This document shows, one piece after another, positions 62,304-64,000 of a DNA stretch of 64,000 nucleotides. Each line of letters starts with the position of its first letter. Positions within the stretch are counted from its first letter, which is position 1. Made by a program: the position numbers and the translations under genes. The notes below the pieces were generated by a model. It worked only from the letters and a program-made list of their open reading frames with translations, made no database searches and was not told the DNA's origin. The DNA comes from Acidobacteriota bacterium. GTDB lineage: Bacteria > Acidobacteriota > UBA890 > WLXD01. The stretch is taken from NCBI GenBank assembly GCA_965248695.1, contig CBDFKD010000002.1, forward strand, positions 2,176,001 to 2,240,000, in the 5' to 3' direction.

Positions 62304-62332
62304 AGATTATCCGCTGGATACGAGACCGTCAA
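62304..62332 (-). promoter_or_regulatory. Sigma70 promoter of the rpmH operon
   Basis: TTGACG-17nt-TAATCT on the minus strand. Confidence 0.65.
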
Positions 62333-62571
62333 CTCCGCGTCGACTGCGGGTAGTGGGTCAGTTTCAAGTAATTGGAGCGGACGACGGAAAATACCGGTCA
62401 ATCAGTCGGTGAAAACAACGGACAACCGTGGCCACGGCTACTTTGCTTGTATAATGCAACGAGCCCGATCAGCTCGTAACTGATCAGGCTCGGGCGAAAG
62501 CATATGTGGGATTTTTTAGCCGGACTGGTGGGACCGGCGGGGGAGGCGTTTTGCGCCTCAGCTGTGGGAGA

Positions 62572-62601
62572 AGTGTATTCCCGACCGCACCGCGCCGTCA
62601 A
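62572..62601 (-). promoter_or_regulatory. Sigma70 promoter firing leftwards over a hairpin-rich non-coding segment
   Basis: TTGACG-18nt-TACACT on the minus strand. Confidence 0.6.
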
Positions 62602-62652
62602 CCGCACCGGCTTCGTCTATCTGAGAGGAGAAGTTTGGGGCGGGAACAGCTA

Positions 62653-62726
62653 GGCGACGTAGTGTAGCCAGGTAAGCACACTCCCCTGGAAAGGGGGTAT
62701 CGCGGGTTCAACTCCCGGCGTCGCCT
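62653..62726 (+). tRNA. Non-canonical tRNA: anticodon GGA (Ser) on a type-I, U73, tRNA-Cys-like body; CCA not encoded
   Basis: Acceptor GGCGACG/CGTCGCC; D-arm GTGT-AGCCAGGTAA-GCAC; anticodon arm CTCCC-CTGGAAA-GGGGG; variable loop TATC; T-arm GCGGG-TTCAACT-CCCGG; discriminator T. Confidence 0.85.
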
Positions 62727-62968
62727 CTCTTTATTTCCCGCCCCAATTCTCCGTCTCGGGTAAGCGCACTTCACCACTACTCTCAGAGTGTGGGGAATTC
62801 ACTAGCGCGACATCAACCGGATAATCATCCGGGCGTTGCGACGAGTAAATCCAATGCGCTCCAATGGTCTCGGTCCCCTACGTCGTCCGTGTGGGCGGCA
62901 CGACCCGTGCCATTGCGACACTCTAATCCTACTATAAGACATGTGCCATGTGGCATGTAGGCGTTGTG

Positions 62969-63811
62969 CTACGCCGCTGCTTCGTGCCTCTCTAGCAACC
63001 GCACGATGTCTTCGATCTCGTAGATACGGTTCGCAACGCCGGCTTCCATCGCAGGCGTGACGCGCAGCGTCCGGTGAACGCGACAGAAGTTGTAGTACAT
63101 GAAGTGCAGCGCGACGGCGTGAGTCAAGTTCTCCACCTTCTTGCTGAATCCGTTGGTGAGTCGCGTGAAGCGGCGCATGCTCATTCGCATGGTTAGGTTC
63201 TGTCGCTCCACGTAACTTGTGCTCACCAACGCCCGGTCGGGGTGGCCGGTCACGAATCGTTTTCGAACCCCGAGGCACCTAGCGGGCGAATACCGCTTCT
63301 CGGCCTCGGGGTCAGATCCATACACCTTGTGCAGCATGGCGAAGTCAACGTCCGCCATGAAAGCGGCGGGCACCGCGTCGAGATACATCGTGTGCCCGTC
63401 CGTAGTGATCTGTGCGCGGTGGGCAAGTCGTGACGCTAAGTCGCTCATGAAGGCAAACGCGGTGTCTGCGTTGCGGTAGCCGAACCACCACGCCGGCACG
63501 ATCTTGGTGTCAGCACAGATGGATGTGAACGTCCAGACATCGCCGTATCCGAACTGGCCGCGCTTCTCCGGCGGAACGTTCTTTTCCTTCGCGTAGCAGA
63601 ACGCCCAAATCTCGTCGGCTTCCAAGCGGCGGCACGGAAGATCGCGCAGCACGCGGTCTTGGAAGTCGGAACACACCTGGCCGATCTCGGCCAGGAGCTT
63701 GGTGACCGTGTTCTTCGCCGCGCCGGTCATACGGCAAGTCGCACGCATGGAGTTGCCCTCGACCAAGGCCGCAACGATCTCTGTTCGCTTCTCTGTGCTC
63801 AACTGGTTCAT
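62969..63811 (-). CDS. IS1-family single-ORF DDE transposase
   Basis: N-terminal HTH LVEGNSMRATCRMTG; EADEIW (D), TTDG (D), STSYVERQNLTMR (E), RRFTRLTNGFSKK, TPAMEAG. Confidence 0.92.
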   Translation of the reverse strand: MNQLSTEKRTEIVAALVEGNSMRATCRMTGAAKNTVTKLLAEIGQVCSDFQDRVLRDLPCRRLEADEIWAFCYAKEKNVPPEKRGQFGYGDVWTFTSICADTKIVPAWWFGYRNADTAFAFMSDLASRLAHRAQITTDGHTMYLDAVPAAFMADVDFAMLHKVYGSDPEAEKRYSPARCLGVRKRFVTGHPDRALVSTSYVERQNLTMRMSMRRFTRLTNGFSKKVENLTHAVALHFMYYNFCRVHRTLRVTPAMEAGVANRIYEIEDIVRLLERHEAAA

Positions 63812-63818
63812 AGGAGTA

Positions 63819-63847
63819 ATTGTACATGACCGGTCAAGCATAGACAA
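63819..63847 (-). promoter_or_regulatory. Transposase promoter with palindromic spacer; probably leaderless
   Basis: TTGTCT-ATGCTTGACCGGTCATG(17)-TACAAT-7nt-ATG. Confidence 0.7.
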
Positions 63848-63884: not shown

Positions 63885-63998
63885 CTAGGGCTTGATCACG
63901 CCTTGGTCGATTGCCCGTCTCACGCCTTCGCGTACAAGCGCGAGAGCAACCCCTGTGGGGGTCTTCTCGTACAGGTCCGTTTCCGCTAAACGCACGAG
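63885..63998 (-). CDS. 3' end of a small protein, possibly ribbon-helix-helix (truncated by window edge)
   Basis: Hand translation ...LVRLAETDLYEKTPTGVALALVREGVRRAIDQGVIKP*. Confidence 0.4.
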   Translation of the reverse strand, partial: LVRLAETDLYEKTPTGVALALVREGVRRAIDQGVIKP

Positions 63999-64000
63999 GT

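What the first reader, a model, noticed from the sequence alone, without database searches (positions are those of the whole stretch)
62349..63811. IS1-family 'transporter' element whose cargo appears to be non-coding RNA
Seen: the transposase stop is at 62969, but an IS1-like end (GGTAGTGGGTCAGTTTCAA) lies 620 bp further on, at 62349. The intervening DNA has no convincing protein gene but holds the odd tRNA, long stems and promoters. Established: IS1 IRs begin GGT(A/G)ATG, and transporter IS elements carry passengers, usually proteins. From recall (unverified), this single-ORF subgroup often ends TCAAACTGACCCACTACC right after the transposase stop. Inference: a mobile unit that disseminates a non-canonical tRNA/ncRNA cassette. 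This is the best candidate for an undescribed system in the window.
Basis: partly seen in the sequence, partly recalled or inferred. Interest (0 to 1): 0.8.

Follow-up and report, generated by a model that had tools for sequence, protein, structure and literature searches.

The report
Mobile IS1-type element carrying odd tRNA
A complete 3.2-kb jumping gene of the IS1 family sits just upstream of the rpmH promoter and carries, besides a few protein genes, a non-standard tRNA gene, which turns out to be a recurrent kind of passenger in this widespread family of elements.

Summary
The IS1-like end at 62349 is real. Its partner lies 1.5 kb beyond the window end (extrapolated 65490-65508, 18 of 19 bases complementary). 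Both ends are flanked by the 8-bp duplication CGACTGCG. The element is 3160 bp. It is absent from the rpmH-dnaA spacer of 4 of 4 congeners. An empty-site allele exists in the source sample.

The cargo is not only RNA. One arm is 601 nt of structured, ORF-poor DNA. It holds a 74-nt tRNA (anticodon GGA, short variable arm, U73, 4-bp T stem) on top of a 32-bp helix. The other arm has a 67-aa ORF, a frameshifted DUF3800 gene and a conserved 83-aa ORF.

I delimited 96 relatives with the same inverted repeat and 8-bp duplication. Of these, 20 carry tRNAs inside. Half of the 22 internal tRNAs are irregular: Ser anticodons on short-arm bodies, or Ile/stop/Pro/Ala anticodons on long-arm bodies. This recalls the published allo-/irregular tRNAs.

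The family also inserts with its end exactly 15 bp from a TTGAC (-35-like) motif. Here the motif is the rpmH promoter, at 16 bp.

The function of this tRNA is not shown. There are no RNA data and no homologue of the cassette. My verdict is a new variant of a known kind, of moderate to high interest.

The parts
62304..62332 (-). rpmH promoter next to the insertion. The -35 TTGACG is at 62332-62327, the spacer is 17 nt, and the -10 TAATCT is at 62309-62304.
   Evidence: Read. The hexamers are conserved in 4 of 4 congeners (alignment). Eight nt separate the -35 from the target duplication.
62341..62348 (.). Left copy of the 8-bp target-site duplication CGACTGCG. The right copy lies beyond the window end at L006 3510-3517 (extrapolated 65509-65516).
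   Evidence: The empty-site contig in run X4 has a single copy.
62349..62367 (+). Terminal inverted repeat GGTAGTGGGTCAGTTTCAA. This is the end nearest the transposase 3' end. Its partner TTCAAACTGACCCACTACC lies beyond the window end at L006 3491-3509 (extrapolated 65490-65508).
   Evidence: pair I3 (21-nt arms, 95% complementary). The family consensus is GGTAGTGGGTCAGTTTGA.
62368..62968 (+). 601-nt non-coding cargo arm, strongly structured.
   Evidence: z = -5.6; no Pfam hit for 6 small ORFs; no homologue in about 170 fetched loci or elsewhere in the genome.
62614..62649 (+). 5' arm of the long helix that encloses the tRNA.
   Evidence: 32 pairs with 62729-62766. pair I10: perfect 12-bp core, 62635-62646 with 62735-62746.
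62653..62726 (+). Non-canonical tRNA. The anticodon is GGA (loop CUGGAAA), the variable loop is 4 nt, position 73 is U, and no CCA is encoded. The T stem has 4 Watson-Crick pairs plus a G.G mismatch. A(-1) at 62652 can pair with U73.
   Evidence: (mismatch flagged). The genome's canonical tRNA-Ser(GGA) is 90 nt and lies elsewhere.
62729..62766 (+). 3' arm of the long helix.
62969..63811 (-). Single-ORF IS1-family DDE transposase, 280 aa from ATG 63811. The listed TTG start at 63847 would overlap the promoter.
   Evidence: NCBIfam IS1 E = 1.7e-13, below cut-off. Pfam DDE_Tnp_IS1 21.9 bits against a cut-off of 24.1. Plasmid homologues of 52-57% identity are annotated as IS1 family transposase. 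The family start ATGAAC is conserved.
63819..63847 (-). Transposase promoter and operator. The -35 TTGTCT is at 63847-63842, the palindrome GCTTGACCGGTCATG is at 63839-63825, and the -10 TACAAT is at 63824-63819. Seven nt separate the -10 from the ATG.
   Evidence: The same TTGACA - GCTTGAsCGsTCAAGC - ATAAT layout precedes the transposase start in most of the listed relatives.
63885..64000 (-). 3' part of a 67-aa ORF upstream of the transposase. The ORF is cut by the window end; in full it is L001 3186-3389, extrapolated to 63885-64088. The rest of the element lies beyond the window:
- a perfect 33-bp palindrome at extrapolated 64101-64133;
- a DUF3800 gene split into two frames at extrapolated 64261-65131 (minus strand);
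- a conserved 83-aa ORF at extrapolated 65199-65450 (plus strand);
- the partner IR at 65490-65508;
- the right duplication copy at 65509-65516.
   Evidence: - One search lists the ORFs.
- pair I7 gives the palindrome.
- One search finds no Pfam hit for the 67-aa and 83-aa ORFs, and places the N- and C-terminal halves of PF12686 (DUF3800) in separate frames.
- links the 83-aa ORF by BLASTP to 21 ORFs of relatives.
- One search shows the same sequence in contigs of 3 runs of the source sample.
- One search gives the partner IR and the duplication.

Best explanation
The locus is a complete, recently mobile 3160-bp transporter insertion sequence of the IS1 family, of the single-ORF type. A DDE transposase acts on two 19-bp terminal inverted repeats and makes an 8-bp staggered cut in the target. 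In this family the cut is placed so that the element end lies 15 bp from a TTGAC motif. Here the motif is the -35 hexamer of the rpmH promoter, 16 bp away, and the promoter is left intact.

Everything between the repeats travels as passenger. That includes the 601-nt structured arm with the non-canonical tRNA(GGA).

I infer that the tRNA is a functional RNA gene of the 'irregular / allo-like tRNA' kind that this IS family repeatedly carries. It has a body that seryl-tRNA synthetase should not recognise (no long variable arm, U73) joined to a serine anticodon.

The most likely working, none of it shown:
1. The tRNA is transcribed inside the element.
2. It is released from the 32-bp helix, which is an RNase III-type substrate, and then processed by the tRNA-processing enzymes.
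3. It acts either as a minor decoder that puts a non-serine residue at UCC/UCU, or as an uncharged regulatory or decoy tRNA. The second role would fit the defence and toxin-antitoxin genes that dominate the family's cargo.

Shown: element borders, duplication, empty sites, tRNA fold, family-wide recurrence and irregularity of the tRNAs, and the target motif. Inferred: expression, processing, charging and role.
For: Borders and mobility:
- The IR pair and 8-bp duplication are present.
- The IR 16-mer is unique to the two ends.
- The element is absent in 4 of 4 congeners.
- An empty-site contig carries a single CGACTGCG.

Family:
- 581 relatives were found in genome contigs and 592 in metagenome contigs. 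The best 80 of each were kept.
- 54 of 80 and 42 of 80 have the same IR plus an 8-bp duplication, giving 96 distinct elements. In the 54 genome-contig elements, sizes run from 1.3 to 5.0 kb with a median of 3.1 kb.

tRNA as recurrent cargo:
- 22 tRNAs lie in 20 of the 96 elements, or 1 per 13 kb. The flanks have 10 in 477 kb, and the host genome has 59 in 5.89 Mb.
- 11 of the 22 internal tRNAs are irregular, against 0 of 10 flanking ones.
- The 400 nt upstream of the transposase hold a tRNA in 18 of 142 loci, always on its strand. The transposase coding sequence holds one in 0 of 160, and a segment further upstream in 1 of 119.
- In the host genome all 4 short-arm 'Ser' tRNAs lie by IS1-like transposase genes or fragments.

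This tRNA:
- Rfam scores it at 52.6 bits.
- U8, A14, G18G19, A21, U33, G53, T54, T55, C56, A58 and C61 can all be read from the sequence.
- It is at most 71% identical to any host tRNA, so it is not a recent duplicate.

Cargo context:
- Of 150 cargo ORFs scanned, Pfam hits included Xre-type HTH (9), SDH protease (7), P63C (6), M78 (4), GmrSD (3) and Panacea antitoxin (3).

Published parallel:
- Allo- and irregular tRNAs, including a U73/GCU species, were reported near toxin-antitoxin and transposon-related genes (PMC5389517, section 16 read).
Against: - No expression data exist. No RNA run holds the stretch.
- No sigma-70-like promoter is predicted upstream of the tRNA on its strand.
- No second copy or homologue of the 601-nt cassette was found in 41 genomes searched (the window's own plus 40 relatives), in about 170 fetched loci, or elsewhere in the host genome. 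Covariation and selection therefore cannot be tested.
- The closest relative (L013, 75% identical transposase) has no tRNA and carries different cargo.
- This element departs from the commonest family layout, which is a tRNA 81-179 nt upstream of the transposase on the same strand. Here the tRNA is downstream and convergent, as in only one other locus, L072.
- The tRNA trait is scattered on the transposase tree: 18 changes for 19 carriers, against a shuffled mean of 18.2. It is therefore exchangeable cargo, not a core part.
- Both ends of the tRNA are buried in a long helix and no CCA is encoded. Either feature could equally mark a non-tRNA role or a dead gene.
- Mukai et al. found that several such tRNAs were not charged or not used in E. 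coli (PMC5389517, section 16).
Confidence: 0.72

Rival explanations
1. The tRNA is a decaying, functionless passenger. It would be a relic picked up with neighbouring DNA, and the element is otherwise an ordinary cargo-carrying IS.
For: - The T stem has a G.G mismatch, no CCA is encoded, and no promoter is predicted.
- The cassette is unique.
- The DUF3800 gene in the same element is already frameshifted.
- The family often lands next to tRNA genes. Flanking host tRNAs lie 48-96 bp beyond the IR in 8 loci (L018, L025, L027, L081, L128, L141, L174; L057 with a weaker IR pair). Capture of a neighbouring tRNA is therefore conceivable.
Against: - All tertiary-interaction positions are intact and the Rfam score is high.
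- The tRNA is not close to any host tRNA, at most 71% identical.
- Capture by read-through past the promoter-side IR would place the tRNA on the transposase strand. Here it is on the opposite strand.
- The 32-bp flanking helix, with a perfect 12-bp core, is not expected around a relic.
- A second, unrelated IS-linked tRNA in the same genome has the same GGA anticodon, the same CUGGAAA loop and U73.
Confidence: 0.17
2. The 601 nt encode one large structured RNA that serves the element itself, with the tRNA-like fold as one domain. It might act as an antisense or cis regulator of the convergent transposase mRNA, or as a cofactor of transposition. This would be analogous to the RNAs of IS110 or IS200/IS605 elements.
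For: - The whole arm folds far better than shuffles, z = -5.6, with a long-range closing helix.
- It is convergent with the transposase gene, with no terminator predicted between them.
- No ORF has a family hit.
Against: - No family in Rfam other than tRNA matches at E <= 1.
- The arm has no counterpart in 160 family loci. In 21 of 54 delimited elements the transposase stop lies within 76 bp of the IR, so no such RNA is needed for transposition.
- The family's target motif is constant (TTGAC), which argues against a programmable guide.
Confidence: 0.08
3. The IR at 62349 and the one at 65490 belong to two different or nested elements. On this view the tRNA arm is host DNA trapped between them, that is, a composite.
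For: Other IS1-like copies and fragments exist in the genome. Contigs in the sample join the same IRs to other contents (joints 369->3490).
Against: - There is only one transposase gene and only one IR pair inside 8 kb.
- An identical 8-bp duplication flanks exactly these two IRs.
- Congeners and the empty-site contig lack the whole 3160 bp at once.
Confidence: 0.03

Closest known systems
IS1 family, single-ORF / passenger-carrying ('transporter IS') members. The ISMhu11-type subgroup name comes from my recall of ISfinder. No paper with that name was found.
   Same: - It has a DDE transposase with the IS1-type C-terminal ERxNLxxR...FSK motif.
- Its IRs begin GGT.
- It makes an 8-bp duplication.
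- It carries passengers between the IRs.
- Homologues are annotated as IS1 family.
   Different: - It has a single ORF instead of InsA/InsAB' made by frameshift.
- Scores fall below the curated IS1 cut-offs.
- The IR consensus GGTAGTGGGTCAGTTTGA is highly conserved.
- tRNA genes are recurrent cargo.
- There is a fixed-distance TTGAC target motif, which I did not find described.
Allo-tRNAs and 'irregular tRNAs' of Acidobacteria and soil metagenomes (Mukai et al. 2017, PMC5389517; review PMC7609411, passages read).
   Same: - Body and anticodon do not match.
- U73 species with Ser-type anticodons are reported.
- A shortened T stem and a possible 8/4 branch occur.
- They lie near toxin-antitoxin or transposon-related genes.
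- The relatives surveyed here carry UAU, UUA, UAG and CAA long-arm tRNAs like theirs.
   Different: - The window's tRNA has a short variable arm and an ordinary D arm, so it is not an allo-tRNA by their definition.
- It is enclosed by a 32-bp helix.
- The papers suggest, but do not define, a transposon vehicle.
tRNA genes carried by phages, ICEs and plasmids.
   Same: A mobile element carries tRNA genes as accessory cargo.
   Different: - Those are mostly canonical tRNAs matching the element's codon use.
- Here the vehicle is a 2-5 kb DDE insertion sequence.
- Half of the tRNAs are structurally mismatched to their anticodon.
Ty3 and Dictyostelium TRE5-A retrotransposons (works-like comparison only, recalled).
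   Same: They insert at a fixed short distance upstream of the promoters or starts of highly expressed genes, often tRNA genes. This leaves the gene intact.
   Different: - Those are eukaryotic retroelements guided by Pol III factors.
- Here a bacterial DDE transposon sits 15 bp from a TTGAC hexamer.
- Whether RNA polymerase or the transposase itself reads the motif is unknown.
RNA-guided insertion sequences (IS110 bridge RNA, IS200/IS605 omega RNA; recalled).
   Same: An insertion sequence has a structured non-coding RNA region inside its ends.
   Different: - There is no evidence of guiding here.
- The RNA arm is not conserved in the family, and the target motif does not vary.

Membership tests
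IS1 family insertion sequence | DDE transposase of the IS1 type | tested here: inconclusive
   NCBIfam transpos_IS1 gives E = 1.7e-13 but 50.9 bits against a cut-off of 100. Pfam DDE_Tnp_IS1 gives 21.9 bits against 24.1. Plasmid homologues of 52-57% identity are annotated 'IS1 family transposase'. Candidate D66, D138 and E202 are invariant in the 3 paralogues. Their role as the catalytic triad is my inference.
IS1 family insertion sequence | Terminal inverted repeats beginning GGT | tested here: met
   GGTAGTGGGTCAGTTTCAA at 62349 and its complement at L006 3491-3509. The same start is seen in 96 delimited relatives.
IS1 family insertion sequence | Target duplication of 8-9 bp | tested here: met
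   8 bp, CGACTGCG. An 8-bp duplication is also present in 96 of 160 relatives' loci.
IS1 family insertion sequence (classical IS1 type) | Two ORFs (insA, insB') joined by programmed frameshift | tested here: not met
   One uninterrupted 280-292 aa ORF. It therefore belongs to the single-ORF type, not classical IS1.
Transporter IS (tIS) | Passenger genes unrelated to transposition lie between the IS's own IRs | tested here: met
   The tRNA, the DUF3800 gene, the 67-aa ORF and the 83-aa ORF all lie between the IRs.
tRNA (Rfam RF00005) | Cloverleaf scoring above the gathering threshold | tested here: met
   52.6 bits against 29. ARAGORN also calls it.
Bacterial tRNA-Ser | Long variable arm and G73 | tested here: not met
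   The variable loop is 4 nt and position 73 is U. The host's four canonical Ser tRNAs are 90-97 nt.
Allo-tRNA (Mukai et al. 2017) | 12-bp acceptor branch in 8/4 or 9/3 form | tested here: inconclusive
   The T stem has 4 Watson-Crick pairs plus a G.G mismatch. A(-1):U73 pairs in the minimum-energy fold. An energy model cannot decide between 7/4 and 8/4.
Allo-tRNA (Mukai et al. 2017) | Long variable arm and Sec-like long D stem with tetraloop | tested here: not met
   The variable loop is short, the D stem is 4 bp and the D loop is 10 nt.
RNA-guided IS (IS110 / IS605 type) | A conserved element-encoded RNA whose variable part matches the target | tested here: not met
   The RNA arm is not conserved among 160 family loci. 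The target motif is constant.

The most novel reading that the evidence does not exclude
A widespread, cross-phylum IS1-type transporter family with IR GGTAGTGGGTCAGTTTGA may be the natural vehicle that spreads 'recoding-type' tRNAs. These are Ser-bodied tRNAs with Leu, Ile or stop anticodons, and non-Ser bodies with Ser anticodons such as the window's tRNA(GGA). They travel together with defence and toxin-antitoxin genes. The element parks itself at a fixed 15-bp distance upstream of -35 hexamers of strong promoters (tRNA genes, rpmH), which would be a bacterial counterpart of tRNA-gene-targeted retrotransposons. On this reading the tRNAs are active parts of a mobile module, such as mistranslation, a decoy against tRNA-directed toxins, or abortive infection. 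In many elements they are paired with a coiled-coil plus winged-helix protein.
Probability: 0.35. Interest if true: 0.8.

Novelty: new variant of a known kind. Interest (0 to 1): 0.6.

Why it matters
- It gives the puzzling allo- and irregular tRNAs of soil bacteria a defined, testable vehicle. The borders, the transposase, its operator and its target motif can now all be named. It also shows that these tRNAs move between phyla inside 2-5 kb insertion sequences.
- If the tRNAs are active, this is a route for horizontal spread of codon reassignment or deliberate mistranslation.
- The fixed-distance TTGAC targeting would be a new kind of target choice for a bacterial DDE transposon, if the transposase or RNA polymerase reads the motif. 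It could be used as a promoter-proximal insertion tool.
- For this genome, the practical point is annotation. The rpmH-dnaA spacer holds a 3.2-kb mobile insertion, and 'tRNA-Ser(GGA)' at this place should not be counted as a serine tRNA.

Tried and rejected
- Expression: the look-up of sequencing runs listed 4 runs of one sample and study, with no RNA holder listed. Expression therefore could not be examined.
- Homologue search: I looked for homologues of the 601-nt arm by blastn against all fetched loci and the whole genome. The only hit was a 64-nt, 75% match to the host tRNA-Asp. The 41-genome search gave only a weak 85-nt hit in G005, which I did not follow up.
- Closer relatives in metagenomes: the best was 68% identical. 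The closest overall is L013 at 75%, with different cargo and no tRNA.
- Relaxed ARAGORN thresholds: at -ps80 the control segments hit as often as the test segments (37 of 160 and 29 of 119 against 40 of 142). I used only the default and -ps90 results.
- Internal second IR next to the tRNAs (nested minimal IS): no systematic IR-like site at 4 or fewer mismatches of 16 lies beside the tRNAs. A 13-nt match at 62774-62786 (pair I15) is within chance expectation, and I dropped it.
- Second GGA-tRNA locus (C2:5.22 Mb): no IR pair or duplication was found, only one IRR-like site. That tRNA is 'adjacent to', not shown 'inside', an element.
- G007 copy (99-100% identical pieces of the cargo): it is a 378-bp remnant without IRs, transposase or tRNA.
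- Rfam at E <= 1 gave nothing besides tRNA. YrlA-like and other large-RNA readings therefore have no support.
- Literature: 'ISMhu11' gave 0 papers. The searches gave nothing on tRNA cargo or promoter targeting of IS1-type elements. Supplements of PMC5389517 (its figures S5-S7 and sequence lists) could not be seen and may already show some of these loci.
- The capped protein searches, structure prediction and complex prediction were not used. None would have changed the verdict.
Full report
**Setting.** The window is G000:C2:2176001-2240000. Its right end holds yidC, yidD, rnpA and rpmH on the minus strand. dnaA and dnaN follow about 3.9 kb further on the plus strand, beyond the window end. 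The finding lies in the rpmH-dnaA spacer.

**The observation.** The 19-mer GGTAGTGGGTCAGTTTCAA is at 62349-62367. The transposase stop is at 62969-62971, leaving 601 nt between them.

I fetched the DNA beyond the window.
- The partner repeat TTCAAACTGACCCACTACC lies at L006 3491-3509, extrapolated to window 65490-65508. The pair, with one flanking base, shows 21-nt arms at 95% complementarity.
- Each repeat is flanked by CGACTGCG (62341-62348 and L006 3510-3517).
- The element is therefore 3160 bp with an 8-bp target duplication.
- The exact 16-mer of the repeat occurs only at these two places in 5.89 Mb.

**Mobility.** All 4 same-genus genomes searched have rpmH and dnaA joined by a short spacer without the 3.16 kb. 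ARAGORN finds no tRNA in those four loci. In one run of the source sample, a contig of a slightly different strain (2 differences in 350 nt) joins position 350 to 3532 of L006. It carries a single CGACTGCG, so it is an empty-site allele.

**Contents.**
- The transposase is 280 aa from ATG 63811. It is a single ORF with sub-threshold IS1 hits. It has 52-57% identical plasmid homologues annotated as IS1 family transposase.
- Directly upstream is a promoter-operator layout conserved in the family: TTGACA, then the palindrome GCTTGAsCGsTCAAGC, then ATAAT about 7 nt before the ATG. Here it reads TTGTCT / GCTTGACCGGTCATG / TACAAT.
- Further upstream, beyond the window end, lie three features. The first is a 67-aa ORF preceded by a perfect 33-bp palindrome. 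The second is a DUF3800 gene split into two frames. The third is an 83-aa basic ORF. The 83-aa ORF is homologous to a small ORF that sits about 65 nt inside the left repeat of many relatives. In this element it lies on the strand opposite to the transposase.
- So the cargo is not RNA only.

**The RNA arm (62368-62968).**
- Six small ORFs have no Pfam hit at E <= 0.1.
- The region folds with z = -5.6.
- The tRNA is at 62653-62726: Rfam 52.6 bits, ARAGORN anticodon GGA.
- Its conserved tertiary positions are intact.
- Its variable loop is 4 nt, position 73 is U, and no CCA is encoded.
- Its T stem has four Watson-Crick pairs and a G.G mismatch.
- A(-1) can pair with U73, so an 8/4-like branch is possible but not decided.
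- It sits on a flanking helix of 32 pairs, 62614-62649 with 62729-62766 (z = -6.4).
- The genome has canonical Ser tRNAs of 90-97 nt for GGA, CGA, TGA and GCT.
- The nearest host tRNA is only 71% identical.
- No promoter-like site precedes the tRNA on its strand.

**The family.**
- A three-sequence alignment of the host's paralogues found 581 relatives in genome contigs. The single protein found 592 in metagenome contigs. The best 80 of each were examined.
- They come from Acidobacteriota, Deltaproteobacteria, Chloroflexota, Actinomycetota, Nitrospirota, Planctomycetota and others.
- 54 of 80 and 42 of 80 loci have an IR pair of the same kind (consensus GGTAGTGGGTCAGTTTGA, at least 14 of 18 matching) with an 8-bp duplication. 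This gives 96 distinct elements. In the 54 genome-contig elements, sizes run from 1336 to 4969 bp with a median of 3.1 kb.
- Most of the other loci are cut by contig ends or lack the duplication.
- Of 175 cargo ORFs of at least 75 aa in the genome set, I scanned the first 149 plus the window's 83-aa ORF. The commonest families were Xre-type HTH, SDH protease, P63C, M78 peptidase, GmrSD and Panacea antitoxin. This is a defence and toxin-antitoxin flavour.

**tRNAs in the family.**
- ARAGORN at default settings finds 22 tRNAs inside 20 of the 96 delimited elements (292 kb). It finds 10 in their flanks (477 kb).
- Eleven of the 22 internal ones are irregular. Four are short-arm bodies with Ser anticodons. 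Five are long-arm bodies with Ile, Pro, Ala or ochre anticodons. Two have odd anticodon loops. All 10 flanking tRNAs fit their class.
- Nineteen tRNAs lie within 400 nt upstream of the transposase start, all on its strand, and 17 of them at 81-179 nt.
- By segment scan, the upstream 400 nt hold a tRNA in 18 of 142 loci. The transposase coding sequence holds one in 0 of 160, and a more distant segment in 1 of 119.
- These tRNAs sit upstream of the transposase's own promoter and are often preceded by a hairpin.
- On a FastTree of 160 transposases the trait needs 18 changes for 19 carriers, no fewer than shuffled labels. The tree used 157 loci plus 3 host copies; 3 loci with stops or short matches were dropped. 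The tRNAs are therefore exchangeable cargo.
- In the host genome, all 4 short-arm 'Ser' tRNAs lie by IS1-like transposase genes or fragments. Two of these are identical copies. One, with anticodon cga, has a poor anticodon stem and lies about 800 bp from a transposase fragment.
- The other GGA tRNA differs in sequence from the window's but shares the CUGGAAA loop and U73.
- The window's arrangement, downstream and convergent, is shared only with L072.

**Target choice.**
- Reading outward from the repeat nearest the transposase 3' end, TTGAC starts at offset 15, which is 7 nt after the duplication. This holds in 21 of 95 elements, and TTG in 33 of 95. At the other end it holds in 8 of 96, and TTG in 15 of 96. 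The mean TTG count per offset is 1.9.
- Many sites continue with a -10-like hexamer after 17 nt.
- Eight are followed within 48-96 bp by a canonical host tRNA gene.
- In the window the same end abuts the conserved rpmH promoter (TTGACG, 17 nt, TAATCT), with the hexamer at offset 16.
- Whether the transposase or the polymerase complex reads the motif is open. The transposase's own operator and repeat contain TTGA-type half-sites.

**Comparison with the literature.**
- Mukai et al. 2017 (PMC5389517; abstract, matched passages and section 16 read) described allo-tRNAs and polycistronic irregular tRNAs of Acidobacteria and soil metagenomes. UAU was the commonest type, and a U73/GCU species was included.
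- They found these often near toxin-antitoxin genes, and once overlapping a 'transposon-related protein'. They suggested an association with transposable elements.
- Several of the tRNAs were charged or active in E. coli, and others were not.
- The review PMC7609411 (passages read) repeats this.
- I found no paper that names the IS1-type vehicle, its repeats or its target motif.

**Verdict.** The element and its borders are established. That irregular tRNAs are a recurrent passenger of this family is well supported. What the window's tRNA does is inferred only. I file it as a new variant of a known kind: a transporter IS of the IS1 family with a non-canonical tRNA passenger. The family-level findings deserve follow-up.

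Noticed in passing
96 delimited relatives (L013-L184); in the window 62327-62348: The family inserts with its end exactly 15 bp from a TTGAC, which looks like a -35 hexamer. This holds in 21 of 95 flanks on the transposase-3' side and 8 of 96 on the other side. The site is often a full promoter, and 8 times it lies just upstream of a host tRNA gene. In the window the motif is the rpmH promoter, at offset 16.
   Followed up: partly
L105, L106, L110, L125, L128, L156, L174, L026, L077; host locus L010 538-1140: In many tRNA-bearing relatives the gene just upstream of the tRNA, on the same strand, encodes a 113-200 aa protein. It has an N-terminal coiled coil and a C-terminal winged-helix-like domain. 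HARE-HTH hits are sub-threshold in 2 of 10 (best E = 4.7e-5), and only 3 weak pairwise BLAST links were found, two of them within this group. This may be a protein-tRNA module. The window's own element lacks it.
   Followed up: partly
Upstream of the transposase start in most family loci; window 63819-63847: A conserved promoter with a palindromic operator (TTGACA, GCTTGAsCGsTCAAGC, ATAAT) lies only about 7 nt before the ATG. This suggests a leaderless, autoregulated transposase mRNA. A TGTCAA motif often lies 45-60 nt further upstream.
   Followed up: no
G000 C2:1586595, C2:5218723 (87-nt 'Ala' tgc), C2:3177552 (94-nt 'Cys' aca), C2:4157204 (98-nt 'Pro' ggg), and two tRNA-SeC calls: ARAGORN lists further long-arm tRNAs with non-Ser/Leu/Tyr anticodons in the host genome. 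Only C2:5218723 lies by an IS1-like transposase fragment. Irregular tRNAs are therefore not confined to these elements.
   Followed up: no
L099 (G007:C2:518435-518808) and joints 2113->3192 and 3216->3253: A genome of another genus in the same family holds a 378-bp remnant that is 97-100% identical to pieces of this element's protein-cargo arm, with the DUF3800 gene deleted. The same deleted form occurs in contigs of the source sample. This points to recent exchange between genera.
   Followed up: partly
Just beyond the window end: L006 2102-2134 (extrapolated 64101-64133): A perfect 33-bp AT-rich palindrome, TCAATTACTAATTAGT-A-ACTAATTAGTAATTGA, lies just upstream of the 67-aa ORF. It is probably an operator.
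   Followed up: no
G000 C1:1-3241 versus C2:5219252-5223064: The start of the small contig C1 repeats, in reverse, the IS1-like transposase plus tRNA(GGA) region of C2. The transposase scores and the tRNA sequences are identical. This is probably where the assembly broke at a repeat.
   Followed up: no
L026 4780-4845 and L022 480-546: Just upstream of the called tRNA lies the 3' part of a second tRNA-like sequence, with a T arm and acceptor strand. Neither ARAGORN nor Rfam at gathering score reports it. This hints at tandem irregular tRNAs like the published 'polycistrons'.
   Followed up: no
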